A DNA stretch of 32,000 nucleotides from Methylorubrum extorquens. Its GTDB lineage: Bacteria > Pseudomonadota > Alphaproteobacteria > Rhizobiales > Beijerinckiaceae. The stretch lies in assembly GCA_900234795.1 (NCBI GenBank), contig LT962688.1, positions 600,001 to 632,000 on the forward strand, read 5' to 3'. Within the stretch, counting starts at the first letter, position 1; the number at the start of each line of letters is the position of its first letter. The position numbers were made by a program, and so were the translations under genes. The notes under the pieces were generated by a model, which was not told the origin of the DNA, made no database searches, and saw nothing but the letters and a program-made list of their open reading frames with translations. Below are positions 1 to 20,183 of this stretch, piece by piece.

Positions 1-62
1 CCTTGGCTCCCGTGGCCCCCTTGGCTCCCGTGGCCCCCTTGGCTCCCGTGGCCCCCTTGGCC
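1..62. repeat. Perfect 18-bp tandem repeat (ccttggctcccgtggccc) x3 plus an 8-bp partial unit, cut by the window edge
   Basis: Read directly. Units 1-18, 19-36 and 37-54 are identical, and 55-62 is a partial fourth. The repeat ends 40 bp upstream of the ATG at 102. Confidence 0.95.
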
Positions 63-101
63 TGCAAACCGCCCCCCGGAACGGCTGCGCCGTTCCTGCC
101 G

Positions 102-2057
102 ATGAGCCGCGCCGAGATGACGGCGCTCGGGTGGGACGCCTGCGACATCGTGCTGGTGACCGGTGACGCCTATGTGGATCATCCCAGCTTCGGCATGGCG
201 ATCATCGGCCGGCTGCTCGAAGCGCAGGGGTTCCGGGTCGGCATCATCGCGCAGCCCGACTGGCAGTCGGCGGAGCCGTTCAAGGCCCTGGGCAAGCCGC
301 GTCTGTTCTTCGGCGTCACCGGCGGCAACCTCGATTCGATGGTGAACCGCTACACGGCGGACCGCCGCTTGCGCCACGACGACGCCTACACGGCCGGCGG
401 GGAAGGTGGCCGGCGGCCGGACCGCTCAACAATCGTCTACACGCAGCGCTGCCGCGAGGCCTACAAGGACGTGCCGATCGTGCTCGGCGGCATCGAGGCC
501 TCGCTGCGCCGTATCGCCCACTACGATTACTGGTCCGACAAGGTGCGCCGCTCGATCCTGGCGGACGCGAAAGCCGATCTGCTGCTCTACGGCAATGCCG
601 AGCGCGCCGTGGTCGAGGTGGCAAACCGCCTCGCGGCCGGCGAGGCACCGCACGAGCTCGAGTCGGTCCGGGGCGTCGCCCTGTTCCGCCGCGTACCCGA
701 GCATTACACCGAGCTGCCCGCCGACGATCTCGACTCGACAGACGAGGCCGCCGCCCGCCGGCCCGGCGACACCGTGATCCGGCTCCCCGCCTACGACGAG
801 GTCAAGGACGACAAGGAAGCCTATGCCCGCGCCTCGCGCGTGCTGCACCGAGAGGCCAATCCCGGCAACGCGCGCCCGCTCGTCCAGCGCCACGGCGACC
901 GCGACCTGTGGCTGAACCCGCCGCCGATCCCGCTGACCAGCGACGAGATGGATGCGGTCTACGACCTGCCCTATGCCCGCGCGCCCCACCCGTCCTACGG
1001 CGACGCGAAGATCCCCGCCTGGGACATGATCAAGTTCTCGGTGACGATCATGCGCGGCTGCTTCGGCGGCTGCACCTTCTGCTCCATCACCGAGCACGAG
1101 GGCCGCGTCATCCAGAACCGCTCGGAGGGCTCGATCCTGCGCGAGATCGAGCGGATCCGCGACAAGACGCCCGGCTTCACCGGCGTGATCTCGGATGTCG
1201 GCGGACCGACCGCCAACATGTACCGGATGGCCTGCAAGGACCCGAAGATCGAGGCGGCGTGCCGGCTGCCGTCCTGCGTCTTCCCGGACATCTGCCCCAA
1301 CCTGAACACCTCGCACGACGACCTGATCCGGCTCTATCGGAAGGTCCGCGAGGTGAAGGGCGTCAAGAAGGTGATGGTCGCCTCCGGCGTGCGCTATGAC
1401 CTCGCGGTCCGAAGCCCCGAATACGTCGAGGAGCTCGTGACCCACCATGTCGGCGGCCGTCTCAAGATCGCGCCCGAGCACACCGAGCGCGGCCCCCTCG
1501 ACCTGATGATGAAGCCGGGCATCGGCACCTACGACCGCTTCAAGGAGATGTTCGACGCCGCCGCCAAGAAGGCCGGCAAGAAATACTACCTGATCCCGTA
1601 TTTCATCGCGGCGCATCCGGGCACGACCGACGAGGACATGCTGAACCTCGCGCTCTGGCTCAAGAAGAACGACTACCGCGCCGACCAGGTCCAGACCTTC
1701 CTGCCCTCGCCCATGGCGACGGCCACGACCATGTATCACACCGAGATCAACCCGCTGCAGGGCGTGCGCCGCGGCGGCAGCGAGCCGGTCGCTGCGATCA
1801 AGGGCCTGCGGCAGCGCCGGCTGCACAAGGCGTTCCTGCGCTACCACGACCCCGAGAACTGGCCCCTGCTTCGCGAGGCGCTGCGCGACATGGGCCGCGC
1901 GGATCTCATCGGGCCGAGGCCGGACCAGCTCGTGCCGTTCTCGCAACCGCCGGGAACAGGCACAGGCGTGAGCAAGGGGCGAGGCCAGCCGCGCCCCATA
2001 CGCGCCGCGGGTGGCGGGCAGCGTTTCACCACGAAGGGCGTGCCGTTCAGGAAGTGA
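102..2057 (+). CDS. ygiQ: YgiQ-family (UPF0313) radical SAM protein
   Basis: ATG at 102 ([12 protein letters not shown]...). The N-terminal [23 protein letters not shown] block is typical of YgiQ. Radical-SAM CxxxCxxC motif [13 protein letters not shown]. Basic C-terminal tail. The ORF-track start at 3 is only an open upstream frame through the tandem repeat. Confidence 0.85.
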
Positions 2058-2203: not shown

Positions 2204-3091
2204 TCACCCCCGCAGCCGCGCCACCGCCATCTTCCGCACCCGGCTCGCGTAGAACGAAAGAAACCCGCGCTGGGCGTGGTCGCCGGGGGTGCGCAGGACG
2301 AGGCCCGGATCGACAAGCATCCGCCTGCCCGTGGCGGCGGCGATGCGGCGGTTGAGAGTGAGATGCTCGCAGCGGGCGTAATCGTCGTCGAGATAGGAGC
2401 CGAGCCGGTAATCCGCGCCGCGGTAGAGCGTCAGCCCGTTGAAGGCCGAGAGGCAGGTGGTCTCGCGCTCCCGCGTCAGCGCGCTTTGTGCCGGGTAGAT
2501 CGTGTCGGAGAAGAAGCGGTAATAGCCGAGGGCGCCGCGGCGGTGGCGGGCGATGTCGTCGAGAAGGTACTCGTAGCTCACCGCCTCGTCCTCGTAGGCG
2601 AGCAGATCGTAATAGTGCGGCTGCGACGCCGCCGAGACGGCGAACAGGCCCGGCCGCTCCAGCTTGGCCAGCGCCGCGAGAACCGCCCCCGCTTCGGGCG
2701 GGCGCGCCATGACGTTGTCGATGTCGGCGACACAGACATAGGCGGGCGCCGGCCCCTGACCGTCGAGCACGCGCTTAAGATGTTCGCGGCCCCGGGCCAT
2801 CCGCGCCAGCCGGCCGCGGATGTCGGACATGAAGGCGGTGGGGACATGGCTGAGCTCGCCCCGCGCCTGCGCCGCCCAGAGCAGCGCCCCGGTGCCATCG
2901 CGGGAATCGTTCTCGCCGACGAGGGCGTGGCAATCGAGTCCCGCGTCCCTCAGGGAGGACAGGAAGCGCAGGAAGGCGGGGAGGGTGGCCGCACAATTGC
3001 GCGCCAAGGCCAGCACCACGATGTCGGGGCGCTCCGCATCGACGGGGTCTTGCAAGGAGTCTTGCACGCGGCCTTGCACCGGGTCGCTCAT
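2204..3091 (-). CDS. GT-A-fold glycosyltransferase-like protein (GT2-like signature)
   Basis: Start taken at MSDPVQGRV (ATG 3091), which overlaps the upstream stop as ATGA (3088-3091). VGENDSRDGT resembles the GT2 DDGSTDGT block. A DxD-like VADIDNV is present. No TM segments. The ORF-track N-terminal extension overlaps the upstream gene. Confidence 0.55.
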   Translation of the reverse strand: MSDPVQGRVQDSLQDPVDAERPDIVVLALARNCAATLPAFLRFLSSLRDAGLDCHALVGENDSRDGTGALLWAAQARGELSHVPTAFMSDIRGRLARMARGREHLKRVLDGQGPAPAYVCVADIDNVMARPPEAGAVLAALAKLERPGLFAVSAASQPHYYDLLAYEDEAVSYEYLLDDIARHRRGALGYYRFFSDTIYPAQSALTRERETTCLSAFNGLTLYRGADYRLGSYLDDDYARCEHLTLNRRIAAATGRRMLVDPGLVLRTPGDHAQRGFLSFYASRVRKMAVARLRG

Positions 3092-5451
3092 CGCGCGGCT
3101 TCCTTTGGGGTCTTGGGTAGGGCGGGGGATTGGGCGGTACGCCCGGCCGTCCGGCAGGCGCAGGGGGCTTGAGCCGCGATCTCGCGCTGCGGATCGAGGG
3201 TAAGCGTCCGGTTGAGCGACCAGAGCGTGCCGGCGCAGTTCTTGGCATCCCACCACGGGTTGGGCCGGCCGGTGCGGGCGCGCCAATCGACGCTGTTCCC
3301 GCTCACCGTCACGGTGTGGCAGGGCTCGGCGTACTGGTTCCAGACCGAGATGCCGACATTAGTGAAGAGCTGCGGCCGGGCGATCACCACGTTGCCGGCG
3401 ATGGTCATGTGGCTGCCGCTGGCCACCGCGATCCCGTACTGGCCCGGATCGATCAGCAGGTTGTCGCGGGCTTCCAGGTAGGCGCCGCCGCCGTCGCCGA
3501 GCATGATCCCGCCGCCGGACTGGCTCGGACCGCCGCCGACGAGGCGGTTGCGGCTGACCAGGATCGGCCGGCCCGGCTCGCCGCGCGATTGGAACAGGCT
3601 GATCGCGTCCTCCGGCACGCCGCGGCCGGGCTCGTTCTCGCCGATGTTGCACGAGATGCCGTTGCCGGGCCCCTTCACCTTGTCGAACTGCACGAACTGG
3701 CCGGCGGGGATCGGACCCCGGACATTGCGCACGCTGTTGCAGCGGACCTCGACCCCGGTGGAGGAGAGCGCGCGGATGCCCGAGAGGGTGTTGTCGATCC
3801 GGTTCTCCTCGATGGTGACGCCGTCGCTCCCCTCGACATAGATGCCGACATCCCCGGTGTCGCGGATCGTGAGATTGCGGATCGTCACGTTGCGCGAACG
3901 CTCGATCCGCACCCCCTCGCCGCCGCACGGCCCGAGGTCGAGGTTCTCGATCGTCCGGTCGGAGACGTCGCGCAGCACGAGGCAGGGACCGGACGGGTCG
4001 CTGACGGTACGGCGGCTCTCTTCGGCACGGGCGGGCGCAGCGGGCCAGGGCGCGAGGAGCGCGAGACCGGCGAGTGCGCCCAGGGACGTTCCCCGCACCC
4101 GTCGGGGCCGGTACGGCGTGTCGGGCGGGAGGGCGGCAACCTGCGCCCGGAAGATCATCGCGGCGCCGATGCCGATGCCGATCAGCGTCCAGAACGGGAT
4201 CGCCAGCATCGGCCCCTCCAGGGCAACGTCGAAGCTCGCATCGATGACGATCGAGGCGACGTAGCAGGCGATGAACAGGAAGAAGCTCTCCCATTTCCGC
4301 TCGCCCATTCGGCGCGCTCGCCAGAAGGCGGCGAGCATGGCCGCCATCCAGACGGCGCAGGTGAGGAGCCACAGGGCGAGGCCGGGCACGCCGCTGCGGG
4401 CGAGGTAGGTCATGTGGATGCTGTGCGGACTGCGCAGGGTCGGCCCGCCATTCTCCAGCCCGACCACGTAGCCGTCGGTCTCGGCCAGATTCGGCCCGAA
4501 CCCCTTGCCGGTCCAGAAATACGGCCCGTTCACGGTGTAGCCGACGATGGTGTTCCACCAGCGCAGCCGCCACTGCTTTGTGTCGTCGAGGTTGCCGCCG
4601 CTGCTCGGGGCGACGATGCTGACAATGTTGTTCACCACCGCCGCGGCGCTGACCGGCCGGTCGCTGTTGGGCAGTTCCACCTCGACATCAAGGGCGGCGG
4701 CGGCGCCCAGAAGGCCGGCGCCGAGGATCAGCGTCGCGGCCATCCGCTTCCATTGCCCGACCGCCAGAAGGGCGAGGCAGACCGGCACCGCGATCGCCAG
4801 CATCGAGCCGCGGTTCTGTGCGGCGGCGAGCACCGCGCCGAGGCCGACGAAGGCGACCCAACCCGGCCCGACCCGGACGAGGCCGACCAGGGCCAGAACG
4901 CAGGCACCGGTCAGATGGGCCGAGAGTTCGCCCGCCCGCGCCGCGAAGAACGGCACGTCGCCGAGGATGAAGGCGATGATCGCCATCGGGATCGCGATGC
5001 GCGCGAGCCAGCGGAACATCCGCAGCAGGGTCCCGAGCCGGCGCGGATCGTCGAGCAGGAGGGCGATCATGACGAAGGCGTAGCCGCCATAGAGCGCGAC
5101 CGCGCCATCGCGCAGGGCATCGACCCGGTATTCGCGCAGGCCGGTGAGCGTCCGCAGCAGCACCCAACCCATCAGCGCGGCCAGACAGAGTGCGGGTGCG
5201 GTGGCGAGCCCGGCCACGAGGTTGATGCCCGATCGCGCCCGCAGCGCGGCGAGCAGCCCTAGCAGGAACAGCAATTCGCCGGCATAGAGCGGCGGCAGGC
5301 CGAGATAGGCGAAGCTCTTGCCGAAGATCATGTACCCGGCAAACGCGATGCCGAGCGCCGCCAGGAACAACTCCGCAAGGCGGCTTTCCCGCGACAGGGC
5401 CGGGACGGTCGTCGTCGCTGCCATCAACACCCGCCCATCGACAATCGCCAT
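3088..5451 (-). CDS. Wzy/O-antigen-ligase-like polysaccharide polymerase fused to a C-terminal right-handed parallel beta-helix domain
   Basis: The N-terminal ~450 aa is polytopic membrane protein with a Wzy_C-like loop (AAAQNRGSMLAIAV ... SPHSIHMTYLARSGVPGL). Residues ~452-476 look like a signal peptide (RRVRGTSLGALAGLALLAPWPAAPARA/EE). The C-terminal ~310 aa carries beta-helix repeats (VTIRNLTIRDTGDVGIYVEGSDGVTIEENRIDNT...). Confidence 0.75.
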   Translation of the reverse strand: MAIVDGRVLMAATTTVPALSRESRLAELFLAALGIAFAGYMIFGKSFAYLGLPPLYAGELLFLLGLLAALRARSGINLVAGLATAPALCLAALMGWVLLRTLTGLREYRVDALRDGAVALYGGYAFVMIALLLDDPRRLGTLLRMFRWLARIAIPMAIIAFILGDVPFFAARAGELSAHLTGACVLALVGLVRVGPGWVAFVGLGAVLAAAQNRGSMLAIAVPVCLALLAVGQWKRMAATLILGAGLLGAAAALDVEVELPNSDRPVSAAAVVNNIVSIVAPSSGGNLDDTKQWRLRWWNTIVGYTVNGPYFWTGKGFGPNLAETDGYVVGLENGGPTLRSPHSIHMTYLARSGVPGLALWLLTCAVWMAAMLAAFWRARRMGERKWESFFLFIACYVASIVIDASFDVALEGPMLAIPFWTLIGIGIGAAMIFRAQVAALPPDTPYRPRRVRGTSLGALAGLALLAPWPAAPARAEESRRTVSDPSGPCLVLRDVSDRTIENLDLGPCGGEGVRIERSRNVTIRNLTIRDTGDVGIYVEGSDGVTIEENRIDNTLSGIRALSSTGVEVRCNSVRNVRGPIPAGQFVQFDKVKGPGNGISCNIGENEPGRGVPEDAISLFQSRGEPGRPILVSRNRLVGGGPSQSGGGIMLGDGGGAYLEARDNLLIDPGQYGIAVASGSHMTIAGNVVIARPQLFTNVGISVWNQYAEPCHTVTVSGNSVDWRARTGRPNPWWDAKNCAGTLWSLNRTLTLDPQREIAAQAPCACRTAGRTAQSPALPKTPKEAAR

Positions 5452-5677: not shown

Positions 5678-7012
5678 ATGCCCGCCCTCCCGCGCGACCT
5701 CCGTGCCCTGGCCGGCGCCCGACGCGCGGTTCTCGGGCGAAGGGTTCCTGGGAGACAGGTTCTCGCGCGGGTGGCGGCCGGCCCGGCACTCTCGGTGGCC
5801 GATCAGGCGCTGGTGAGCGCGTGCAACTTCGCCACCACCATCGTGCTGGCGCACGCGCTCGGCCTCGAGGCTTTCGGCCTGTTCTCGACGGCCTGGATCG
5901 CGGTGCTGCTCACCGTCAGCCTGCAGCTCGGCCTCGTCGTCTGCCCGATGATCAGCATCGGGCCGGGCCTGGGCGACGAGGCGCGGCCTGCCTATTACGC
6001 CATCGTCCTCGTCCACGAGGCCGCCTTCCTGACGCTGGCCGGCGGGGCTGTCGCGATCGGGCTCGCCTTGGCTTTCGGCGACCGGGCTTTGGGGCTCGCG
6101 GCGGGCGTGGCCTGCGCCGCCCACCTCGCCCAGGACTTTTGCCGCCGCTACCTGTTCGCCCGCGGGCGGCCCCCGGTCGTTCTGGGGATCGATGCGCTCA
6201 ACCAGGGGATCAAGCTCGCGGGCCTGATCCTGCTCAGCCGGGCAGGGATGCTCTCGCCGACCCGCGCCCTGGAGGTCGTCGCGGCCTCGGCCGCCCTGTC
6301 CTGCCTCTGCGCGATCCCGTTCCGGGGTGCGCTGGCGTGGCGGGCGGGCGAGTTCGGCGCAGCAAGCCGGCGGCAATGGCATTCCGGCCGCTGGCTGGTG
6401 CTCACGGGGCTAATGCAGTGGCTGAGCGGCTATGGCGGCCTGCTCGTCGCCGGAGCCCTGCTCGGCGTGACGCTGATCGGCGTGCTGCGCGCGGCGCAGA
6501 GCATCCTCGGGGTTCTCAACCTGATCCGTGACGCCCTCGAGAACATCGTCCCGCCGATCGCCGGCCGGGCGCTGGCGCAAGGCGGCCTCCACGGCCTGCG
6601 GCCGGTCATCGGCGTCACCGCCGCCATCGGCTTTGCCGGGGGCCTAAGCTTCACGGCGCTGCTGGCGCTCACCGGCAAGAGCCTGCTCGCGGCGGCGTTC
6701 GGGCCGGACATGGCGGCCTATGCCTGGGTGGTGGCGTGGTACTCGCTGCTGTTTCCGGTCTCGCTCGTGTCCTTCGCGCAGATCTGCGCGTTTCGCGCCC
6801 TGGAGCGGACGGGTGCGGTCTTCGCGGCCACGGCCGCCGCGGCGGCCCTCAACCTCGCCCTCGTCTATCCGGCGGTGCGCGGGTTCGGCATCGAGGGCCT
6901 GCTCGGCGTGGCGATCACGAGCGAAGTGCTGGTCTGCCTCGTCCTCGCCGGCCTGCTGAGGCGCGTTCTGCGAACCCCGTCAGGCACGCTCGGCAGCCTT
7001 CAGCCGGCCTGA
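5678..7012 (+). CDS. Wzx-like oligosaccharide flippase (MOP/polysaccharide biosynthesis protein family)
   Basis: 444 aa and hydrophobic throughout, with roughly 12 predicted helices. It is divergent from the polymerase gene and sits in a polysaccharide context. The family call rests on overall architecture, not a sharp motif. Confidence 0.6.
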   Translation: MPALPRDLRALAGARRAVLGRRVPGRQVLARVAAGPALSVADQALVSACNFATTIVLAHALGLEAFGLFSTAWIAVLLTVSLQLGLVVCPMISIGPGLGDEARPAYYAIVLVHEAAFLTLAGGAVAIGLALAFGDRALGLAAGVACAAHLAQDFCRRYLFARGRPPVVLGIDALNQGIKLAGLILLSRAGMLSPTRALEVVAASAALSCLCAIPFRGALAWRAGEFGAASRRQWHSGRWLVLTGLMQWLSGYGGLLVAGALLGVTLIGVLRAAQSILGVLNLIRDALENIVPPIAGRALAQGGLHGLRPVIGVTAAIGFAGGLSFTALLALTGKSLLAAAFGPDMAAYAWVVAWYSLLFPVSLVSFAQICAFRALERTGAVFAATAAAAALNLALVYPAVRGFGIEGLLGVAITSEVLVCLVLAGLLRRVLRTPSGTLGSLQPA

Positions 7013-7142: not shown

Positions 7143-8972
7143 TCAAAGCCGAAGCTCGCCCCCGGCGATCTCCGCGTGCATCGCTGCATCGATCCGGCGG
7201 TAGGCGCCGTCGCGGTCGATGTAGAGCGGGTCGTCGGTCCGGTCGGGGTCGAAGCCGTCCTCGGCCAGGGCGACCTTCTTCTGCTTGAACGTCTCGGTAT
7301 GGCCGAGTTCGTCGCTCAGGCGCAGGAACAGCGGCCGGGCATAGGCCGGAAGCCGGGTCTCCATCTCGGCGTGCAGGTGCGCGAGGTCGAAATCCGGCCC
7401 GACCGCGAGCGCCGCCATGCCGGCCCTTCCCTCCGCCCCCGGCACGGACACGCCGTAGACGTTGGCCTCGCGCACGCCCGCGACGCGGTGGAGCGCCTCG
7501 GCGACCTCGGTGGTCGCCACGTTCTCGCCCTTCCAGCGGAAAGTGTCGCCGATCCGATCGACGAAAGTGAAGTAGCCCTGCGCGTCCCGGCGCATCAGGT
7601 CGCCGGTGCGCATCCAGGCATCATTGGGTTCAATCACGTCGCGCAGCACCTTGCGCGCACTCTCGGCGGCGCTGGTATAGCCCTCGAACGTGTATTCCGC
7701 CCGCTCCGAGAGCCGGCCGAGCAATTCGCCGGCCTCGCCGAACTCGGCCGGGATGCAGCGCCCCCGCGCATCGCGCGCCGGCAGGCCCGTGGTGACGTCG
7801 TGGCGGACGATCAGGGCCGGCGAGCGCCGGGCCATGAACGAGGGCACGCGCCCCACCGCGCCGACCCGGCCCTCGACGTTGTAGAGCGAGAGCGTGCCCT
7901 CGGTCGCGGCGTAGAATTCGAGGATGCGGGGGATCGCGAAGCGCGCCTGGAACGCCTCCCAGACCTCCGCGCGCATGCCGTTGCCGGTGCAGAGCCGCAG
8001 GCGGTGCCGACCCTCGGCGGGGTCGGGGGCGGCAAGCGTGAGATAGCGGCACAGCTCACCGATATACTGGAACAAGGTCGCCCCGCTCTCGGCCACGTCG
8101 GCCCAGAACCGGCTGGCGGAAAATTTCTCGCGGATCACCACCGAGCCGCCGCCGAGCAGCACCGAGCCCGGCGCCACCACGCCGCCGACGCTGTGGTAGA
8201 GCGGCAGGCAATCGTACATGCGGTCGTCGGGCGTCGGGTCGATCAGGCCGGCGAACCAATGGGTCCACATCATCACCCGGTGGTGGCTCACCCGCGCGGC
8301 TTTGGGCAGGCCGGTGGTGCCGGAGGTGTAGATCAGCAGCGCGGGATCGCGCAGCGTGACGGGCGGCGCCTCGTCGAGCCCGAGCGGAGCCTCGCGAAAC
8401 CCCGCCGAGGCCGCGGCGAGCGTGTCGTTTGTGTCCGGCCCCTGCCACACGATCTCCGGCTGCTCGGCGAGATGGGGCAGAGCTCCCTCAAGCACGTCGG
8501 CGAGGTCGGCGGCGGCGATGACGAGGCGAGGGGCGGCGACCGCAAGGCAATGGGCGAGGCCGGCGCCGCGCAGGTGGGTGTTGAGCAGCGCCACGCAGAC
8601 GCCGACGCGGGTGAGCCCGAGCCAGATCGCGAGATAATCCGGGCAGTTCCGCATCAGGAGGGCGACGGTGTCGCCCTTGGCGAGCCCGCGCGCCAGCGCC
8701 CAGCGGGCGTAGCGGTTGCGGCGCGCGGCGAGTTCCCGATGGCTCAGGGTTTCGTCCCGGCCGATCAGGGCCGGCGCGTGGGCGCGCTCTACGGCGACGG
8801 CGTCCAGCACGAGGGGGAAGATGCGCTCCGGGCTCGCGTCAATCCGCGCCGTGCGGGCCAGGGCCCCGAGCCAGCCGGCGGTGGAGGAGGGCCGGGGCGG
8901 CGGGGCCGCGCTGTCTCGATCCGGGCGTCCCCCGAGCGGATCGGGGGAGGCTGCGGCGAAAGTCTGGTCCAT
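7143..8972 (-). CDS. FATP-type long-chain/very-long-chain acyl-CoA synthetase (adenylate-forming)
   Basis: Motifs YTSGTTGLPKAARVSHHR, YAATEG and TGDLMRRDAQGYFTFVDRIGDTFRWKGENVATTEV. Start taken at MDQTFAA (8972), 12 nt after the metA stop. Confidence 0.8.
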   Translation of the reverse strand: MDQTFAAASPDPLGGRPDRDSAAPPPRPSSTAGWLGALARTARIDASPERIFPLVLDAVAVERAHAPALIGRDETLSHRELAARRNRYARWALARGLAKGDTVALLMRNCPDYLAIWLGLTRVGVCVALLNTHLRGAGLAHCLAVAAPRLVIAAADLADVLEGALPHLAEQPEIVWQGPDTNDTLAAASAGFREAPLGLDEAPPVTLRDPALLIYTSGTTGLPKAARVSHHRVMMWTHWFAGLIDPTPDDRMYDCLPLYHSVGGVVAPGSVLLGGGSVVIREKFSASRFWADVAESGATLFQYIGELCRYLTLAAPDPAEGRHRLRLCTGNGMRAEVWEAFQARFAIPRILEFYAATEGTLSLYNVEGRVGAVGRVPSFMARRSPALIVRHDVTTGLPARDARGRCIPAEFGEAGELLGRLSERAEYTFEGYTSAAESARKVLRDVIEPNDAWMRTGDLMRRDAQGYFTFVDRIGDTFRWKGENVATTEVAEALHRVAGVREANVYGVSVPGAEGRAGMAALAVGPDFDLAHLHAEMETRLPAYARPLFLRLSDELGHTETFKQKKVALAEDGFDPDRTDDPLYIDRDGAYRRIDAAMHAEIAGGELRL

Positions 8973-8983
8973 CTCGGGCGCTC

Positions 8984-9980
8984 TCACGCGGCGAGCGCGA
9001 CGCGGTCCGAGACCAGCGCGAGCCAGTTGCGGAACAGCCCGGCGGCGGCCTCCTGCCAAGCGGCCGGACGGGGCAGGGTCTCGGCCATCGTCGGGAAGTC
9101 GGCGTGCAGGGCGGGCGAGCGATAGGCCCGTGCCACCGCGGCGAAGGCGTCGAGACGCCGGACGGCCTCGTCGACGTAGTAGTTCTCGGGCAGCGCGGGC
9201 GGGGTGTCCCGCTCGCCATCGAGGAAGCGGCCGATATCCCGGCGGTACTCGCGGGCGAGCGTATCGCCGTCATATTCCGGGTGGCCCTGGAGGAAGACCA
9301 TCAAGGCACCGCGCTCGCGGACGAACAGATCGACCCCGACCTGTTCGGAGCGCCGCAGGACACGGTAGCCGCGGGCGGTCAGCGCCTGTTCGGGCAGGTC
9401 GTTCCAGCGCGAATGCGGCACCGGCACGTTCGCCGGCATCCCCGCGAGCAACGGATGGTGGGCGACCGCCGTGCAGGCATAGATGCCGGAATGCTTGGTC
9501 GGCAGCGGCTGACGCTCGATGCCATCGAGGTGCAGCACGGCCGCATGCGCGGCCAGACACGAGAACAGGGTCGGGACGCCGCTCGCATCCGCCCAATCCA
9601 CCACCGCCGCGAGCGCCGGGAAGAATGGCTCGTCGGCAAGACCCTTGGCCTTCGGCTCGGCGCCGGTGACGACGAGGGCATCGAGCCCGGCTCCAGCCAG
9701 CGCGCCTTGCGTCTCGTAGAAGCGTTCGAGATGGGCGCGGGCGAGGGGGACCGCGCGGGACCGTATCGAGGCTGAACAGGCGCAGCTCGACGCCTGGGCC
9801 GATCAGGCGCCGGAACTGGCGCTCCGTCTGCACCAGGGCGCTGTCGGGCATGTTGTTGAGGAGGCCGACGCGAAGCTTTGGCTGCGCCGGCTCGTGCCAC
9901 GCGACGCCGCCGACTGCGCCGAGATCCAACTCCGCCGCGGGCAGGCTCACGGGTTGGATCGAGGTGCCGTAGTCCAGCAT
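8984..9980 (-). pseudogene. metA: Homoserine O-acyltransferase MetA, reading frame broken by a 1-nt shift near 9745-9765
   Basis: The N-terminal part is in the frame of ORF 9270..9980 (MLDYGT...KLRVGLLNNMPDSAL...LRLFSLDTVPR). The remainder is in the frame of ORF 8984..9604, which I extended upstream by hand (...LARAHLERFYETQGALAGAGLDALVVTGAEPKAKGL...HSRWNDL...QGHPEYD). The RBS GGAGGAG lies 7 nt before the ATG at 9980. Confidence 0.8.
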
Positions 9981-10013
9981 GGCGGGTCTCCTCCGGACGC
10001 GATGGGGAAGGGT

Positions 10014-11307
<1,294 letters not shown>

Positions 11308-11620
11308 GTCTTGAAGCTGTCCCGAAACCGCGGAGTTAAGGTCTTGAGCGCAAGGCTTGGACCAGACTTGGCCGTACCGGAACGGGATGACAGCTTGCGA
11401 GACTTGCTGAACGCGAAACTTCGACAAGTCTTGATCGATGACTTCGATGATGGGGAAATCGCCCGGCAGACGTCGGCTCCGGCCGCACGGCTCCGTCTTT
11501 CCGGCCTAATCTCTGTTGCCCGGCCGCTGTCTCGAAACGGGGCAGGCGTGCCAAATCGGACCTAGTCTTGATACGGCGCAAGATCGGCTGAAATTCCACA
11601 GTCTTCGCCGGCCCTCGCGT
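11308..11620 (-). promoter_or_regulatory. Long structured 5' leader/promoter region of metY, with a repeated GTCTTGA heptamer and competing helices that cover the translation start region
   Basis: GTCTTGA occurs at 11308, 11341, 11428 and 11565, and GACTTG at 11365 and 11401. mRNA segment 11396->11383 (AAGCUGUCAUCCCG) can pair with 11324->11314 (CGGGACAGCUU), which ends 6 nt before the AUG. An alternative helix is CGCAAG (11399->11394) with CUUGCG (11354->11349). Confidence 0.35.
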
Positions 11621-11785
11621 TAGTCATAACCACACAATCGACTTGTCATGCGATCGGAACCGTGATTTCCGATAAGCTCGGCGCTTCCGGAATGGTCCCG
11701 AACGTCCGCTCCCTTTGTCATCAACGCGTTCTCGCGCGCCGAACCGGCGCCCCGTTTCGGCGGAGAGCGCTTCAGCGAGGATGCC

Positions 11786-12235
11786 GTGTCGACCACAGCG
11801 ATGATTCCGTCCGTGACCTCGGGCGAGCTGCGCGCCGCCCCGATCGAGCCGAGCTGGATCCACGAGGGACGGCCCGTGGCCCGCAACACCATGCTCTCGC
11901 GCAGCGCCGACGGCATGGCCTGGACCCTGGTCTGGGACTGCACCGCCGGGCGGTTCGAGTGGCACTACGACATCGACGAGACGATCCACTTCATCGAGGG
12001 CTCGGCCACGATCAGCGACGGCCTCTCCCCGCCCAAGACCTTCCGGGCCGGCGATGTGTTGTTCATTCCCCGCGGCGCGGTCTGCCATTGGCATGTCGAG
12101 AGCTACGTGCGGAAGGTCGCCTTCTGCCGGAAGACGCAGCCGAAGGTCGTGGCGCTCGCCCTGCGCGCGGCCGGCAAGGCCAAGCGGATGCTGAGCCGCC
12201 GCTCCGGCGCCGGCAGCGCGCTCGAAGCCGCCTGA
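11786..12235 (+). CDS. Cupin-fold protein (DUF861/cupin_3-like)
   Basis: DETIHFIEGSATISDG...GDVLFIPRGAVCHWHV is a typical single cupin barrel. The start is uncertain: GTG at 11786 or ATG at 11801. Confidence 0.6.
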   Translation: MSTTAMIPSVTSGELRAAPIEPSWIHEGRPVARNTMLSRSADGMAWTLVWDCTAGRFEWHYDIDETIHFIEGSATISDGLSPPKTFRAGDVLFIPRGAVCHWHVESYVRKVAFCRKTQPKVVALALRAAGKAKRMLSRRSGAGSALEAA

Positions 12236-12257
12236 ATGCATCGAGGCTGAGCCTCAG

Positions 12258-12367
12258 ACGCCGGCGGTCGCCTCCGCGGCCTTGGCTTTCGTTCCGCTCT
12301 GTCTTCGGAAGGACGGTTCGTCCTCCCGAACCCGCTCCACGGGGCGCTCTTCGCGCCCGGCTGGCGG
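12258..12367 (+). repeat. Intergenic structured repeat, copy A (conserved flanks around a variable central hairpin)
   Basis: 12258-12290 matches 18124-18156 at 31/33 positions. 12331-12367 matches 18187-18223 at 34/37. The centre at 12304-12330 forms ttcggaaggacg-gtt-cgtcctcccgaa. A conserved hairpin gggcgc-tcttc-gcgccc lies in the 3' block. Confidence 0.8.
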
Positions 12368-12422
12368 TGCCATCGCTGTTCGAGCGATGGCCTGTTCAGC
12401 ACATCCCGGAGGCTCGGCCGCG

Positions 12423-13304
12423 ATGACGACGCCCGATCACGACACCTCGCCCCCCGACACCTGGACCTTCTTCGAGGGCGCGTGGCATCCCGGCAATGTC
12501 CGGATCATGGGGCCACGCACCCACGGCGCGTGGCTCGGCTCGACGGTGTTCGACGGCGCCCGCGCCTTTGAGGGCGTCACGCCCGATCTCGATCTGCACC
12601 TCGCCCGGGTCAACCGCTCGGCCACCGCCCTCGGGCTCACGCCGAAGGTCGCGGTCGAGGAATGGGCCCGCCTCGTCGCCGAAGGGCTGACGCGCTTTGC
12701 GCCCGACGCCGAACTCTACATCCGGCCGATGTACTGGGCCGAGAGCGGGTTTGCCGGCGGCGTGCGCTTCGATCCCGCCTCCACCAACTGGTGCCTGTCG
12801 CTCTACACGGCACCGATGCCGCTGCCGTCGGGCGTCAAGGCGACGCTCTCGCCCTTCCGCCGCCCGTCGATCGAGGTCGCCCCCGTCGATGCCAAGGCCG
12901 GATGCCTTTACCCCAACGGGGCGCGGGCGCTGACAGAGGCGCTGTCGCGCGGCTTCGGCAATTGCCTGATGCTCGACGGGCTCGGCAACATCGCCGAGTT
13001 CGCCAACGCCAATGCGTTCTTCGCGCGGGACGGGGTGGTCTACACCCCGGTCCCGAACGGGACGTTCCTCGCGGGCATCACCCGCGCCCGCGTCCTCGCG
13101 CTGTTGCGCGGGGCCGGTGTCACGGTGGTGGAAAAGACCCTGCGCTACGAGGACTTCCTGAGCGCCGACGAGGTCTTCACCGCCGGCAACTTCGCCAAGG
13201 TCGCCCCGGTCACCGGGCTCGATGACATACGCTTCGAGCCGGGACCGATGTTTCGCCTCGCACGCCAGCTTTACTGGGATTTCGCGCACGGACGGCTGTC
13301 GTAG
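12423..13304 (+). CDS. Class-IV (branched-chain or D-amino-acid) aminotransferase
   Basis: 293 aa from ATG 12423 (MTTPDHD...). Blocks GAWLGSTVFDGARAF, ELYIRPMYWAE and EFANANAFFARDGVVYTP are typical of fold-type IV PLP aminotransferases. Confidence 0.8.
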   Translation: MTTPDHDTSPPDTWTFFEGAWHPGNVRIMGPRTHGAWLGSTVFDGARAFEGVTPDLDLHLARVNRSATALGLTPKVAVEEWARLVAEGLTRFAPDAELYIRPMYWAESGFAGGVRFDPASTNWCLSLYTAPMPLPSGVKATLSPFRRPSIEVAPVDAKAGCLYPNGARALTEALSRGFGNCLMLDGLGNIAEFANANAFFARDGVVYTPVPNGTFLAGITRARVLALLRGAGVTVVEKTLRYEDFLSADEVFTAGNFAKVAPVTGLDDIRFEPGPMFRLARQLYWDFAHGRLS

Positions 13305-13333
13305 CGGCACAAAGTTCAAGCTTTGCAGCCGCT
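13305..13333. terminator. Hairpin between convergent genes (candidate bidirectional terminator)
   Basis: gcggcacaaag-ttcaag-ctttgcagccgc starts immediately after the TAG at 13302-13304 and lies 16 nt before the convergent stop at 13349. Confidence 0.45.
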
Positions 13334-13348
13334 ACAGACTCATCTCGA

Positions 13349-13672
13349 TCAGCAGCTCAGACGGCGGCGCTCACGGCGACCGAAGGTCTGGTAGTGCGCA
13401 GCTCCGGATTCCATCTGGCCCCGTCGGACCGCGCGGAGCACGTCCGGATTGCAGCGCAGATACTCGCGCTCATCGAAGCCGTAATCGCGCCGGCCATAGC
13501 CACGACCACCATAACCACGGCCGCGGTCCTCGTCGTCGTAATCGCGGCCACCATAGCCACGGCCGCGTTCTTCGTAGCCATAGTCACGGCTGCCATAGGG
13601 CTGGGCCGACACTGAGGCGATGGATCCCATCAAGCCCAGGCCTACGGCCGCCACTGCATAAATCGCCTTCAT
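13349..13672 (-). CDS. Small secreted low-complexity protein with RGRGYGGRDY repeats and a Cys-flanked C-terminal NPDV...HY..FG module
   Basis: ATG at 13672 is preceded by GAGGAG. Signal peptide MKAIYAVAAVGLGLMGSIASVSA/QP, then a G/R/Y/D/E-rich repeat region, then EYLRCNPDVLRAVRRGQMESGAAHYQTFGRRERRRLSC. Confidence 0.6.
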   Translation of the reverse strand: MKAIYAVAAVGLGLMGSIASVSAQPYGSRDYGYEERGRGYGGRDYDDEDRGRGYGGRGYGRRDYGFDEREYLRCNPDVLRAVRRGQMESGAAHYQTFGRRERRRLSC

Positions 13673-13802
13673 ATCGGGTGGTCTCCTCATCAGCCGCTAG
13701 GAACGCGACGAAACGAATTTTGGTTCGCGGCCGGGGCCGAACGGCCGTGCTTGTGTCTCGCATGCCTCGCCCGAACGGTCATGGTGGGGTGGCTTCGATG
13801 TT

Positions 13803-15506: not shown

Positions 15507-15578
15507 CGCTTCGATCTCGCTTGACGGCAGGACGCGTCCCGGTTCGGGACCATCCCTCGGCACATCCTGCGGTTCGTA

Positions 15579-15599
15579 CCGGAACTGAACAGTTTCCGG
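15579..15599. promoter_or_regulatory. Near-perfect palindrome in the divergent promoter region (candidate operator)
   Basis: ccggaactg-aa-cagtttccgg lies between the divergent ThDP-enzyme and flavin-reductase genes. Confidence 0.25.
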
Positions 15600-15803
15600 C
15601 CCGTCCAGCCGGGCCCTGGACTTGCACAGACGAGCCGCAAGGACAGGCAACGTCATAGAGATGAACCGATAACGTCCGGTTTCGACCGGTGCGGAACGGG
15701 CAGGTTTCTCAAGGTCCCATTTCACATCGACGAACGGATTGCGAACCATGCTTGCGCACCGGAGATCATCGACACCGGGCACCTCGGCCGGCTCGTTCGG
15801 CGG

Positions 15804-16391
15804 ATGGGGGGCGTGATGGCCGCCGCCGCGCTGGCGCCGGAGCCAGCCATCGACGGGGAGCTCCTCAAGCAGGCGATGCGCCGCCTCGTCGGCGGGGTCG
15901 TCGTGATCACCGCCGGAACCGGCGAGGACCGGGTCGGGCTCACCGCGACCTCGGCCGTCTCCCTCTCCGTCGATCCGCCGACCATGCTGGTCTGCGTCAA
16001 CCGCGCCTCCTCGACCTGGCCGGTCATCGCCCGGCGGCGGCATTTCTGCGTCAGCATCCTCGGGGCCGGGCAGCAGGCGACCGCCGAGCGCTTTGCCGGC
16101 ATCGGCGGGCTGCGGGGCGCCGCCCGCTATCGCGGCGCGGATTGGACGATCATGGAATCGGGCGCCTCCGGTCTCACCGAGGCGCAGGCCATCGTCGATT
16201 GCGCGCTGGAAGAGGTCATCGAGCGGCACAGCCACGCCATCCTCCTCGGCGCGGTGCGGGCAGTGCGTCTGAACCGGATCGAGCGGCCCTCCCTGGCCTA
16301 TGGCGGCGGGCGCTTCATCGGGATCTCACCGCATGAGGCGGCACGCGGCACCGGCCGCATTCACAGTGCCGCTGACAACAAGACAGATTAA
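15804..16391 (+). CDS. Flavin reductase (FMN-binding split-barrel, HpaC/NtaB-like)
   Basis: LVGGVVVITAGTGEDRVGLTATSAVSLSVDPPTMLVCV is the characteristic Flavin_Reduct core. The start is ATG 15804 or 15816. Confidence 0.8.
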   Translation: MGGVMAAAALAPEPAIDGELLKQAMRRLVGGVVVITAGTGEDRVGLTATSAVSLSVDPPTMLVCVNRASSTWPVIARRRHFCVSILGAGQQATAERFAGIGGLRGAARYRGADWTIMESGASGLTEAQAIVDCALEEVIERHSHAILLGAVRAVRLNRIERPSLAYGGGRFIGISPHEAARGTGRIHSAADNKTD

Positions 16392-16794: not shown

Positions 16795-16889
16795 GCGGCC
16801 AAGTCCGGATCGCCCAGACTGCGCCGCCCCTCACGAACATCCCTGACGTGCCGCCGGCCCGGCCGGCTTCAGTCCAACGGAGCCCAGCC

Positions 16890-18092: not shown

Positions 18093-18123
18093 AGGCGCTC
18101 GGCGACGTTCGTTCCTGCCTCGA

Positions 18124-18223: not shown

Positions 18224-18265
18224 AGCACAGGCTCCACTGCCCCCTTTGCCGAAGGACTGCCCGCC

Positions 18266-19198: not shown

Positions 19199-19215
19199 CG
19201 TCAAAGCGCCGTCAG

Positions 19216-20133: not shown

Positions 20134-20183
20134 CCCCACCCCTTGTCCACCCCTTGCCCAACCCAGCCTTGAGGAGAGCCACC

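What the first reader, a model, noticed from the sequence alone, without database searches (positions are those of the whole stretch)
3088..5451. Wzy-like polymerase fused in frame to a beta-helix domain that keeps its own signal peptide at the junction
Seen in sequence. The 787-aa ORF has three parts:
- a polytopic Wzy/O-antigen-ligase-like region (nt 5451-4099);
- the segment RRVRGTSLGALAGLALLAPWPAAPARA|EE, which has the n-h-c layout and an AxA site of a cleavable signal peptide. Its Val452 codon is a GTG at 4098-4096;
- a ~310-aa right-handed beta-helix domain (nt 4023-3088).

In the second polysaccharide module of this window the same two functions are separate genes (24110-25480 and 27779-29833).

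Inference. This looks like a gene fusion of a polymerase with a periplasmic glycan-modifying or glycan-cleaving enzyme (lyase, glycanase or epimerase fold). The beta-helix part could stay tethered, be released by signal peptidase, or be made separately from the internal GTG. Coupling polymerisation to trimming or epimerisation in one polypeptide would be unusual.
Basis: partly seen in the sequence, partly recalled or inferred. Interest (0 to 1): 0.6.

Follow-up and report, generated by a model that had tools for sequence, protein, structure and literature searches.

The report
Wzy polymerase fused to periplasmic glycanase
A Methylorubrum gene joins a membrane sugar-chain polymerase to the secreted beta-helix enzyme normally encoded by the next gene, keeping that enzyme's export signal in the middle of the protein; it is a real, recurrent but uncharacterised variant of a known gene pair.

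Summary
ORF 3088-5451(-) encodes 787 aa in three parts: a 12-TM Wzy_C/WaaL-fold module (1-435), a basic linker followed by a signal-peptide-like segment (RRVRGTSLGALAGLALLAPWPAAPARA|EE), and a 311-aa right-handed beta-helix (AF2 pLDDT 91.7).

It is not a sequencing artefact. The same fused ORF occurs in several independent Methylorubrum/Methylobacterium genomes and in about 60 protein clusters in all.

- Solo homologues of the Wzy half end just before the junction.
- Stand-alone homologues of the beta-helix (50-59% id) carry N-terminal signal peptides at the junction's position.
- In close relatives of other fused lineages, the two genes lie adjacent or overlapping (L007, L009). The L007 beta-helix protein is 80% identical to the C-half of fused P0076, and its signal peptide aligns residue for residue with the fused junction.

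Fused forms are polyphyletic and involve two different beta-helix families.

Topology (positive-inside 20:7) and 8 Cys place the beta-helix in the periplasm. Its domain partners (NPCBM, malectin, PA14, T9SS tails) and three conserved carboxylates suggest a glycanase.

Whether the junction is cleaved (favoured: ARA is invariant and AxA is enriched) or acts as a tether remains unresolved. This is a new variant of a known kind, of moderate interest.

The parts
3088..5451 (-). Complete fused ORF, 787 aa (an alternative start at Met10, nt 5424, gives 778 aa as annotated in orthologues)
4147..5451 (-). Wzy_C / WaaL-fold module, residues 1-435. It has 12 hydrophobic segments and a large periplasmic loop at 255-352 carrying the family-invariant R265, R340, P342 and H343. 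R214 is also invariant.
   Evidence: Pfam; profile hit to WaaL 7TPG at E = 6e-7; Foldseek 7TPG E = 1.7e-7, TM 0.61; invariant columns; topology
4084..4146 (-). Cytoplasmic linker, residues 436-456 (AQVAALPPDTPYRPRRVRGTS), with 4 Arg. It corresponds to the n-region of the former signal peptide plus the read-through of the former gene boundary.
4096..4098 (-). GTG codon of Val452, the likely relic of the start codon of the once separate beta-helix gene. No Shine-Dalgarno lies upstream.
   Evidence: analogy with the L007 GTGA-overlap start (MRSPVSMAAALGF... versus fused VRSFLSISAALGL...)
4024..4083 (-). Signal-peptide-like h- and c-regions, residues 457-476 (LGALAGLALLAPWPAAPARA). The predicted signal peptidase I site is A476|E477, between nt 4024 and 4023.
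   Evidence: AF2 pLDDT < 50 for residues 457-479
3091..4023 (-). Right-handed parallel beta-helix domain, residues 477-787, with about 10 rungs and 8 Cys. The stop codon is at 3088-3090.
   Evidence: Pfam; AF2 pLDDT 91.7; Foldseek; Cys
3607..3612 (-). E614-D615 (E138/D139 in domain numbering, motif PEDAISL): conserved carboxylates (99% and 100% of the family) and candidate catalytic residues
3493..3495 (-). D653 (D177 in domain numbering, motif GGGIMLGD): family-invariant carboxylate and candidate catalytic residue
2204..3091 (-). Downstream 295-aa gene. Its ATG overlaps the target's TGA (ATGA) and is preceded by AAGGAA. It is probably a GT-A glycosyltransferase (sub-threshold Glyco_tranf_2_4, E = 0.0017).
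5678..7012 (+). Divergently transcribed 444-aa polytopic membrane protein. The same arrangement is conserved next to the Bosea fusion (49% id). It is probably a Wzx/MOP-type flippase (weak MatE and Polysacc_synt hints only).

Best explanation
The gene is a genuine fusion of two formerly adjacent genes of a Wzx/Wzy-type polysaccharide locus. The upstream gene encoded a 12-TM Wzy_C-family polymerase. The gene immediately downstream encoded a Sec-exported beta-helix glycan-active enzyme, most likely an endo-glycanase acting on the locus's own polymer. Loss of the stop/start boundary put both in one frame, so the former N-terminal signal peptide of the beta-helix protein now lies internally. The proposed mechanism has four steps. 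(1) The 12 TM helices insert co-translationally with both ends in the cytoplasm. (2) The basic linker (RPRRVR) stays inside, and the hydrophobic segment 457-470 initiates export of the beta-helix into the periplasm, where its 8 Cys can form disulfides. (3) Signal peptidase I then most probably cuts after A476 (ARA|EE). This releases a soluble ~33-kDa enzyme identical in form to that made by split loci and leaves Wzy with an extra C-terminal membrane segment. (4) The released enzyme trims or clears polymer in the periplasm, as PslG and WceF do. On this reading the fusion is a 'polyprotein' that fixes 1:1 co-synthesis and co-localisation. Shown: the fusion is real; the junction derives from a signal peptide; the beta-helix is periplasmic; the fusion is recurrent. 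Inferred: cleavage; glycanase activity; polymerase rather than ligase activity for the N-terminal half.
For: Domains and folds:
- Pfam assigns both domains.
- The N-terminal half has the WaaL fold.
- The beta-helix model has pLDDT 91.7.

Not an artefact:
- The fused ORF is present in independent genomes.

Origin of the junction:
- Solo Wzy homologues end at query residues 436-456.
- Stand-alone beta-helix homologues (330-350 aa, 50-59% id) have n-h-c signal peptides, and their mature parts align from 'NPxGxCL'.
- L007 has solo Wzy P0068 followed after 15 nt by a 486-aa beta-helix gene. That protein is 80% identical to residues 476-947 of fused P0076. Its MAAALGFALLAIGPARA aligns to the fused SAALGLALLAIEPVPAVA.
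- In L009 the two genes overlap by 16 nt.
- Humitalea has an operon Wzy (43% id to the target's Wzy half) - acyltransferase - beta-helix (55% id to the target's beta-helix).

Recurrence:
- All-fused monophyly was found in 0 of 100 bootstraps.
- The Bosea-type C-terminal domain belongs to a different beta-helix family.

Topology:
- K+R count is 20 inside versus 7 outside for the N-in model.
- The Wzy_C loop faces outward.
- There are 8 Cys in the beta-helix domain.

Cleavage:
- ARA is invariant in 13 Methylorubrum/Methylobacterium sequences, although the junction is otherwise the most variable part of the protein.
- A strict AxA motif follows the hydrophobic core in 32 of 61 fused proteins, against a background of 0.07.
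- AF2 does not pack the junction as a 13th TM helix (pLDDT < 50).

Glycanase function:
- All fold matches are polysaccharide hydrolases, lyases or depolymerases.
- The same beta-helix family is found fused to NPCBM, malectin, PA14, B_lectin, GH10 and T9SS tails.
- The only conserved charged residues are E138, D139 and D177.
- The family resides in EPS clusters.

Polymerase function:
- Homologues sit with Bac_transf, GT, Wzz and export genes.
- One homologue is fused to a Wzc-type module (P0344).

Precedent for locus-encoded glycanases in Wzy pathways:
- WceF (PMC7949094) and PslG (PMC13434223).
Against: - No signal-peptide or topology predictor (SignalP, DeepTMHMM) and no experiment was available, so cleavage is an inference.
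- The uncharged stretch at the junction is 21 residues long (14 without Pro). Bona fide TM segments of the same protein have uncharged runs of 11-25 residues, so its length does not exclude a membrane anchor.
- The loose -3/-1 rule is uninformative in these Ala-rich proteins (background 0.81).
- The sequences used for the AxA enrichment are related, so the counts are not independent.
- Fold matches are distant (TM 0.3-0.5, 9-14% id), so no CAZy family or catalytic geometry could be assigned.
- The Wzy_C family also contains WaaL ligases and O-oligosaccharyltransferases.
- Deep nodes of the NJ tree are weak, so some of the apparent polyphyly could reflect fissions.
Confidence: 0.5

Rival explanations
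1. Tethered enzyme. The junction is not cleaved and serves as a 13th membrane-spanning anchor. The beta-helix domain is then held at the periplasmic face next to the Wzy active-site loop. It acts in cis on the nascent chain, for example by setting chain length, terminating polymerisation or releasing polymer.
For: The fusion has arisen or been kept repeatedly, and with two different beta-helix families. This hints at a selective benefit of physical linkage beyond co-expression, which operon adjacency and overlap already provide. The 21-residue uncharged stretch could span a membrane. No PCP or OPX gene lies next to the target, so a built-in regulator is conceivable. Loss of WceF lengthens stewartan.
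Against: ARA is invariant and AxA is enriched at the junction, and a plain anchor would not need this. The C-terminal half of the segment is Pro-rich (APWPAAPA) and is modelled as non-helical with low confidence. If Wzy sits inside the PCP octamer lumen, as proposed for PslJ-PslE and WzyE-WzzE, a tethered 33-kDa domain would be sterically awkward. That model also shields the nascent chain from the glycanase.
Confidence: 0.33
2. Two products from one ORF by internal initiation. The beta-helix protein is made separately from the relic GTG (Val452, nt 4098-4096) with its own signal peptide, in addition to or instead of the full-length protein.
For: The GTG sits exactly where the ancestral start is expected (MRGTSLGAL...). 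This parallels the GTG start that overlaps the Wzy stop in the split locus L007.
Against: No Shine-Dalgarno lies upstream (CCCCGACGG directly abuts the GTG). In split loci the start depends on termination-reinitiation coupling, which is lost once the stop codon is gone. Val452 is not conserved as a start-capable codon position in other fused lineages (junction alignment).
Confidence: 0.07
3. A question separate from cleavage: the beta-helix domain is not a depolymerase. It would instead be a C5-epimerase-like modifying enzyme or a non-catalytic glycan-binding or scaffold module (NosD-like or adhesin-like).
For: AlgG, AlgE epimerases, NosD and the adhesin PfbA are among the weak sequence and fold matches. 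No catalytic geometry could be verified.
Against: No His, Lys or Arg is conserved in 74 family members, and there is no DPHD motif in the sequence. AlgG-type epimerases and beta-helix lyases use such residues (own knowledge). Three conserved carboxylates (E138 at 99%, D139 and D177 invariant) fit a hydrolase. Family members carry carbohydrate-binding modules and a GH10 domain typical of secreted glycosidases.
Confidence: 0.2
4. Assembly or annotation artefact, or a pseudogene: two genes wrongly joined by a sequencing error at the junction.
For: Truncated versions exist in some assemblies (P0013 at 512 aa, P0121 at 214 aa).
Against: The intact fused ORF is present in many independent assemblies, down to 78% identity within the genus and 45-48% identity outside it. 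GC3 is 0.89 throughout the ORF. Both domains are under clear purifying selection.
Confidence: 0.01

Closest known systems
Split Wzy_C + beta-helix gene pairs in polysaccharide loci (L007 metagenome contig; Bosea sp. WAO, L009; Humitalea rosea, L002)
   Same: They have homologous Wzy halves (43-50% id) and homologous beta-helix proteins (55% id for the A-type; 80% id between L007 and fused P0076). The gene order is the same and the genes are adjacent or overlapping. The signal peptide lies at the position of the fused junction.
   Different: These are two polypeptides. The beta-helix protein has a normal N-terminal signal peptide. In the target, the stop/start boundary is gone.
WceF of Pantoea stewartii (stewartan locus), PMC7949094
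   Same: It is a right-handed beta-helix glycanase encoded inside a Wzy-dependent EPS cluster. It is exported across the inner membrane, and its loss increases polymer chain length.
   Different: WceF is a separate 736-aa trimeric tailspike-like protein with a Tat signal. There is no detectable sequence relationship, and the target's twin-Arg is not conserved (RPGRVR in P0004), so Sec export is expected.
PslG of Pseudomonas aeruginosa (psl operon), PMC13434223
   Same: It is a periplasmic endoglycosidase encoded in a Wzx/Wzy-type operon. It is needed for normal biosynthesis and proposed to act as a failsafe that clears misdirected polymer.
   Different: PslG has a different fold from the beta-helix (GH39 TIM barrel, own knowledge) and is a separate gene. 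In that model the polymerase PslJ is shielded from PslG inside the PslE octamer.
RbmB of Vibrio cholerae (VPS lyase), PDB 9OZL/9OZD
   Same: It is the best Foldseek match of the beta-helix domain. It is a matrix-polysaccharide-cleaving beta-helix enzyme encoded with the biosynthetic genes.
   Different: The match is distant (E ~1e-4, TM ~0.3, 9-11% id). RbmB is a lyase, whereas the target family lacks a conserved basic residue.
WaaL O-antigen ligase, Cupriavidus metallidurans, PDB 7TPG
   Same: The N-terminal half shares the fold (TM 0.61) and the loop Arg and His-containing motif.
   Different: Identity is only 15%. The genomic context points to a polymerase rather than a lipid A-core ligase. 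WaaL has no C-terminal extension.
Bacterial polyproteins split at an internal signal peptide: Bradyrhizobium FbcH (cytochrome b-c1), and Komagataeibacter AcsAB (BcsA-BcsB) as a processed synthase-partner fusion (own knowledge; not retrievable)
   Same: A polytopic membrane protein is followed in the same ORF by a periplasmic partner whose former signal peptide lies at the junction, and the precursor is processed into two proteins.
   Different: These are different protein families. Processing of the target is untested.

Membership tests
Wzy_C / O-antigen-ligase-like superfamily (PF04932; WaaL, Wzy, PglL) | Significant match to the family profile above the curated threshold | tested here: met
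   53.4 bits against a cut-off of 31.7, residues 200-362
Wzy_C / O-antigen-ligase-like superfamily (PF04932; WaaL, Wzy, PglL) | Polytopic (about 12 TM) topology with a large periplasmic loop between late TM helices that carries conserved Arg and His | tested here: met
   12 hydrophobic segments; the loop at 255-352 faces outward; K+R is 20 inside and 7 outside. R214, R265, R340 and H343 are invariant in 34 homologues. The His motif aligns to WaaL 'AHN'.
Wzy_C / O-antigen-ligase-like superfamily (PF04932; WaaL, Wzy, PglL) | Fold similarity to a solved member | tested here: met
   Foldseek 7TPG_B: E = 1.7e-7, TM (target) 0.61, 432 columns. Profile hmmsearch: E = 6e-7.
Wzy polymerase (as opposed to WaaL ligase) | Polymerises Und-PP-linked repeat units; works with Wzx and a PCP | not testable with these tools
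   Context evidence only. There is a conserved divergent Wzx-like gene. Homologues sit next to Bac_transf, GTs and Wzz-like genes. Homologue P0344 is fused to Wzz/GNVR/ParA.
Right-handed parallel beta-helix (pectate-lyase-like) fold | Profile match plus a stacked three-strand-per-rung helix | tested here: met
   Beta_helix 72.6 bits. AF2 pLDDT 91.7 with about 30 short strands in regular rungs. All top Foldseek hits are beta-helix enzymes.
A defined CAZy beta-helix family (GH28, GH87, GH110, PL1/3/6/9) | Close sequence or structure relationship and family catalytic motifs | tested here: not met
   The PDB profile search found only repeat-level hits. Foldseek gave TM 0.3-0.5 and 9-14% id. Pfam Glyco_hydro_28 did not hit the target.
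AlgG/AlgE-type mannuronan C5-epimerase | Catalytic His-containing motif (DPHD; own knowledge) conserved in the beta-helix | tested here: not met
   There is no DPHD in the translation, no conserved His, Lys or Arg in 74 family members, and only weak hits to 4NK6, 4OZY and 2PYG.
Sec-type signal peptide cleaved by signal peptidase I | Basic n-region, hydrophobic h-region of about 7-15 residues, c-region with small residues at -3 and -1, and no Pro at +1 | tested here: met
   RPRRVR / LGALAGLALLA(PW) / PAAPARA|E. ARA is invariant in the clade, and AxA occurs in 32 of 61 fused proteins against a background of 0.07.
Sec-type signal peptide cleaved by signal peptidase I | Located at the N-terminus of the precursor | tested here: not met
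   It lies at residues 452-476, after 12 TM segments. It is positionally homologous to the N-terminal signal peptides of stand-alone and split homologues.
Sec-type signal peptide cleaved by signal peptidase I | Actually cleaved in vivo | not testable with these tools
   This needs a Western blot or N-terminal mass spectrometry. SignalP and DeepTMHMM were not available.
Tat signal peptide (as in WceF) | Conserved twin-arginine S/T-R-R-x-F-L-K motif | tested here: not met
   The target has RPRRVRG, but orthologues have RPGRVRG, RPGRARG and RAKRWRG.

The most novel reading that the evidence does not exclude
The beta-helix domain stays tethered to Wzy (or docks back onto it after cleavage) and acts as a built-in terminator or release factor. 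It would cut the growing chain at a set distance from the polymerase, or cut it off its undecaprenyl-diphosphate carrier. This would replace or complement the Wzz/Wzc co-polymerase in a minimal three-gene module (Wzx-like, Wzy-glycanase, GT) that has no PCP or OPX of its own. That would explain why fusion recurred with two unrelated beta-helix families. It would also offer a handle on how Wzy-made exopolysaccharides are terminated and released.
Probability: 0.12. Interest if true: 0.8.

Novelty: new variant of a known kind. Interest (0 to 1): 0.45.

Why it matters
Polysaccharide loci of every pathway type tend to encode a cognate glycanase or lyase (PslG, WceF, AlgL, BcsZ, RbmB). The role of these enzymes during synthesis is still debated: failsafe, chain-length control or release.

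This family offers a natural series for that question. Split, overlapping and fused versions of the same polymerase-glycanase pair exist, with fusion having happened several times. This argues for a tight functional, and possibly physical, coupling between the polymerase and the glycanase.

The series also gives a simple experimental system. Methylorubrum extorquens is genetically tractable (own knowledge), so one can test whether proximity or stoichiometry matters.

It is also a candidate bacterial example of an internal signal peptide that processes a polytopic membrane protein into two products. Few such cases are known.

For annotation, these proteins are currently named only 'right-handed parallel beta-helix repeat-containing protein', which hides the polymerase half.

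Tried and rejected
- Sequencing or frameshift artefact: rejected, because the intact ORF is present in many independent genomes.
- Paralogy between the target halves and the second-module genes: rejected (E = 0.4 and 0.05).
- Internal start at the GTG: there is no SD, so it is kept only as a minor rival.
- Tat export: the twin-Arg is not conserved.
- Lipoprotein (lipobox) reading of the conserved Cys just after the Bosea-type junction: residues at -1 to -3 do not fit L-[AS]-[GA]-C. The Cys more likely forms a disulfide.
- 'Short h-region proves a signal peptide': dropped as decisive, because true TM segments of the same protein have uncharged runs of 11-25 residues.
- Loose -3/-1 motif test: uninformative (61 of 61, but background 0.81).
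- Single-sequence PDB search with the Wzy half: nothing found. A profile was needed.
- NCBIfam and Pfam for the neighbouring genes: no or only sub-threshold hits.
- Literature: no paper describing a Wzy_C + beta-helix fusion was found.
- Literature: searches for the FbcH and AcsAB processing precedents failed or were badly specified. The WaaL structure paper is not held. Those points rest on my own knowledge.
- Single origin of all fusions: rejected by the NJ bootstrap (0 of 100), though deep nodes are weak.

Full report
OBSERVATION

The ORF at 3088..5451 on the minus strand is real.

- Pfam places Wzy_C at residues 200-362 (53.4 bits, cut-off 31.7) and Beta_helix/NosD from residue 481 (72.6 bits). 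NCBIfam sees only generic parallel beta-helix repeats.
- The junction reads ...RPRRVRGTSLGALAGLALLAPWPAAPARA|EESRR. Val452 is a GTG at 4098-4096 and E477 begins at 4023.
- GC3 is 0.89 across the ORF.
- The window is from Methylorubrum extorquens or a very close relative. P0001 and P0002 are 99% identical and are annotated merely as 'right-handed parallel beta-helix repeat-containing protein', with the start at Met10.
- The second module exists as stated: Wzy_C at 24110-25480, a Wzz/GNVR/P-loop PCP at 25608-27782 and a Beta_helix protein at 27779-29833. Its proteins are not detectably paralogous to the target's halves.

NOT AN ARTEFACT

The same fused ORF occurs in independent assemblies, including contigs of 5.0-5.8 Mb:
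- at 78-99% identity within Methylorubrum/Methylobacterium;
- at 45-48% identity in four further ~780-aa proteins;
- as a ~950-aa version in Bosea and other Hyphomicrobiales.

About 60 clusters at 90% identity carry both Pfam domains. In an exhaustive search of 1.84 billion representatives there were 2,957 hits. Only four fused representatives (P0008, P0051, P0076, P0252) appear among the top 150, and the rest are solo Wzy or solo beta-helix proteins. The architecture is therefore real, rare and unnamed.

WHERE THE JUNCTION COMES FROM

Solo homologues of the Wzy half (~450 aa, 43-50% id) end at query residues 436-456, right after the 12th hydrophobic segment.

Stand-alone homologues of the beta-helix half (330-350 aa, 50-59% id, 93% coverage) are abundant. 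They begin with ordinary n-h-c signal peptides, and their mature parts align with the target from the conserved 'NPxGxCL...IGPCGGxGI' onward.

The decisive evidence comes from the nearest solo relatives of other fused lineages:
- In L007 the solo Wzy P0068 (5001-6374) is followed after 15 nt by a 486-aa Beta_helix gene.
- In Bosea sp. WAO (L009) the Wzy gene P0096 and a 492-aa Beta_helix gene overlap by 16 nt.
- The L007 beta-helix protein is 80% identical to residues 476-947 of the fused P0076.
- Its N-terminus MAAALGFALLAIGPARA|ADG aligns position by position with the fused junction ...VRSFLSISAALGLALLAIEPVPAVA|SP. With an in-frame GTG that overlaps the Wzy TGA, the N-terminus would read MRSPVSMAAALGF....
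- In Humitalea rosea an operon carries a Wzy gene (43% id to the target's N-half), an acyltransferase gene and a beta-helix gene (55% id to the target's C-half).

The fusion is thus a read-through of two neighbouring, translationally coupled genes. The junction is the downstream gene's signal peptide, and the target's GTG at Val452 is plausibly the relic start codon.

RECURRENCE

In an NJ tree of the Wzy halves the fused proteins fall into at least five places:
- the Methylorubrum clade, sister to the core Bosea clade;
- P0014-17;
- P0076/80/81, beside solo P0068;
- P0114, beside solo P0096, P0110 and P0120;
- P0252.

Monophyly of all fused proteins was recovered in 0 of 100 bootstraps. The ~480-aa C-terminal domain of the Bosea type is a different beta-helix family (hhalign probability 64% over 106 columns). 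Deep nodes are weak, and some events may be fissions. Because stand-alone beta-helix proteins with signal peptides occur across distant phyla, the split state is ancestral.

TOPOLOGY

Twelve hydrophobic segments precede the junction.
- A positive-inside count gives 20 K+R in cytoplasmic loops versus 7 in periplasmic short loops for the N-in model.
- That model puts the Wzy_C loop (255-352) outside.
- It puts the linker 435-456 (5 Arg) inside and everything beyond the junction outside.

The beta-helix half has 8 Cys in semi-conserved pairs, as expected for an oxidising compartment.

The full-length AF2 model (pLDDT 85.3, pTM 0.62) has two confident domains. It has a low-confidence junction (residues 457-479, pLDDT < 50, only a 7-residue helix) that is not packed as a 13th TM helix. 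Its best PDB match is the WaaL ligase 7TPG (E = 1.7e-7, TM 0.61). This is corroborated by a profile hit (E = 6e-7) that aligns the invariant R214 and the R340-x-P-H343 loop motif to WaaL's.

CLEAVED OR TETHERED?

Evidence for cleavage:
- In 13 Methylorubrum/Methylobacterium sequences the stretch between TM12 and the mature domain is the most variable part of the protein, yet A-R-A is invariant.
- A strict AxA (not followed by Pro) lies within 16 residues after the hydrophobic core in 32 of 61 fused proteins, against 7% of background windows.
- All lineages keep a +2 to +5 n-region, an 11-16-residue hydrophobic core and a Pro/Gly/Ser break.

Evidence against relying on this:
- The looser -3/-1 rule is uninformative (background 0.81).
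- The uncharged run of 21 residues is within the range of true TM segments of this protein.
- The sequences are related, so the counts are not independent.

Internal initiation at the GTG lacks a Shine-Dalgarno. It would also have lost the termination-reinitiation coupling that the split loci use.

I therefore favour signal peptidase I processing (about 0.5) over a permanent tether (about 0.33). Internal initiation is a minor possibility. The Psl model places the Wzy polymerase inside the PCP octamer, shielded from the periplasmic glycanase (PMC13434223). That model also fits a released enzyme more easily than a tethered one.

WHAT THE BETA-HELIX DOES

The domain model is confident (pLDDT 91.7). 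Its structural neighbours are all polysaccharide-cleaving or polysaccharide-modifying beta-helix proteins, but they are distant (E ~1e-4, TM 0.3-0.5, 9-14% id):
- RbmB lyase;
- GH87, GH110 and GH28 hydrolases;
- PL6 lyases;
- phage tailspikes and depolymerases;
- AlgG.

No CAZy family can be assigned.

Across 74 family members the only conserved charged residues are E138, D139 and D177 (full-length E614, D615, D653). No His, Lys or Arg is conserved. By analogy with carboxylate-only beta-helix hydrolases, this argues for a glycoside hydrolase rather than a lyase or an AlgG-type epimerase. That step is an inference, and the geometry was not checked.

The same domain family is found joined to NPCBM, Big_5, PA14, B_lectin, malectin, GH10 and T9SS sorting domains. 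It also sits in EPS clusters with Poly_export, Bac_transf, GTs and exosortase. This fits a secreted carbohydrate-active enzyme.

WHAT THE N-TERMINAL HALF DOES

The Wzy_C family includes both ligases and polymerases. Context favours a polymerase:
- A divergently transcribed 444-aa polytopic protein (5678-7012) is conserved in the same arrangement beside the Bosea fusion (49% id). It has a distant relative in the P0014 locus, and it has weak MatE and Polysacc_synt signals, so it is Wzx-like.
- The downstream gene (2204-3091) overlaps the target's stop as ATGA, behind an AAGGAA. It has a sub-threshold GT2 signal.
- Homologues lie next to Bac_transf, GTs and Wzz-like genes.
- One homologue (P0344) is itself fused to a Wzz/GNVR/ParA module.

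No PCP or OPX gene adjoins the target.

COMPARISON WITH KNOWN SYSTEMS

Functionally the closest systems are locus-encoded glycanases of Wzy-dependent pathways.
- WceF of Pantoea stewartii is a Tat-exported, trimeric, tailspike-like beta-helix enzyme, and its loss lengthens stewartan (PMC7949094).
- PslG is a periplasmic endoglycosidase proposed to act as a failsafe (PMC13434223).
- RbmB is the VPS lyase and the top fold match.

None of these is fused to the polymerase, and none is a sequence relative of the target.

Architecturally the nearest precedents are bacterial polyproteins processed at an internal signal peptide: Bradyrhizobium FbcH cytochrome b-c1 and the processed AcsAB cellulose synthase. 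I cite these from my own knowledge because the searches did not retrieve them. No paper describing a Wzy_C-beta-helix fusion was found.

VERDICT

This is a new variant of a known kind: a known gene pair welded into one ORF, repeatedly. It is not a new system.

Interest is moderate (0.45). The finding does not overturn anything. It does offer a natural split/overlapping/fused series for testing how tightly polymerase and glycanase are coupled, and a likely new example of internal signal-peptide processing in bacteria.

The most novel reading still open has a probability of about 0.12. In it, a tethered or re-docking glycanase serves as a built-in chain terminator or release factor in a PCP-less minimal module.

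Noticed in passing
P0344 (1025 aa; found): A homologue of the target's Wzy half is fused to Wzz + GNVR + ParA/CbiA domains. This is a single-chain Wzy-Wzc (polymerase plus co-polymerase/tyrosine-kinase) protein, a second kind of Wzy fusion in this family.
   Followed up: partly
window 5678-7012 (+): A 444-aa polytopic protein with no Pfam or NCBIfam hit is divergently transcribed from the target. It is conserved in the same arrangement beside the Bosea fusion (49% id, L006 5358-6707). The only signals are weak MatE and Polysacc_synt hits in orthologues, so it is probably a divergent Wzx flippase that current profiles miss.
   Followed up: partly
window 2204-3091 (-): A 295-aa gene whose ATG overlaps the target's TGA (ATGA), with an AAGGAA 9 nt upstream. 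It has no family hit above threshold (Glyco_tranf_2_4, E = 0.0017) and is probably a GT-A glycosyltransferase translationally coupled to the fusion.
   Followed up: partly
window 24110-29833 (+): The second polysaccharide module has Wzy_C, a Wzc-like PCP and a 684-aa beta-helix protein whose start overlaps the PCP stop by 4 nt. The beta-helix protein has an N-terminal signal/anchor (VSLGPPRSAAAFLAAVLIGSQLFGFTAAV). It is a different beta-helix family from the target's.
   Followed up: partly
window 16848-22548 (+): A run of genes that resembles an amino-acid:carrier-protein ligase / acyl-modification cassette. It comprises an acyl-CoA-dehydrogenase-like protein, a 310-aa class-II aaRS-core-like protein (tRNA-synt_2b, just below threshold), an alpha/beta hydrolase, an AMP-binding enzyme and an SDR.
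   Followed up: no
window 7143-16235: The two polysaccharide modules are separated by an AMP-binding enzyme, a Cys/Met-metabolism PLP enzyme, a class IV aminotransferase and a TPP enzyme (acetolactate-synthase-like). These genes appear unrelated to the finding.
   Followed up: no
P0013 (512 aa) and P0121 (214 aa, Methylorubrum podarium); These are truncated versions of the target: the N-terminal 504 residues at 100% id, and the C-terminal ~214 residues at 91% id. They may be assembly or annotation breaks, or pseudogenisation in some strains.
   Followed up: no
L004 7382-9811 (Dankookia sp.): An 809-aa HemolysinCabind + Beta_helix protein lies convergent to a solo homologue of the target's Wzy half. 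It resembles rhizobial PlyA/PlyB-type T1SS-secreted EPS glycanases (own knowledge). A second 511-aa beta-helix gene lies in the same cluster.
   Followed up: no
L007 1942-5004: A 1020-aa protein with only a weak N-terminal Wzz hit overlaps the start of the solo Wzy gene by 4 nt. It is possibly a divergent PCP coupled to the polymerase.
   Followed up: no
window 3-2057 (+): A YgiQ-type radical SAM protein (Radical_SAM_N + Radical_SAM + DUF3362) flanks the three-gene polysaccharide module. The module therefore looks like a small island and not part of a large EPS cluster.
   Followed up: partly
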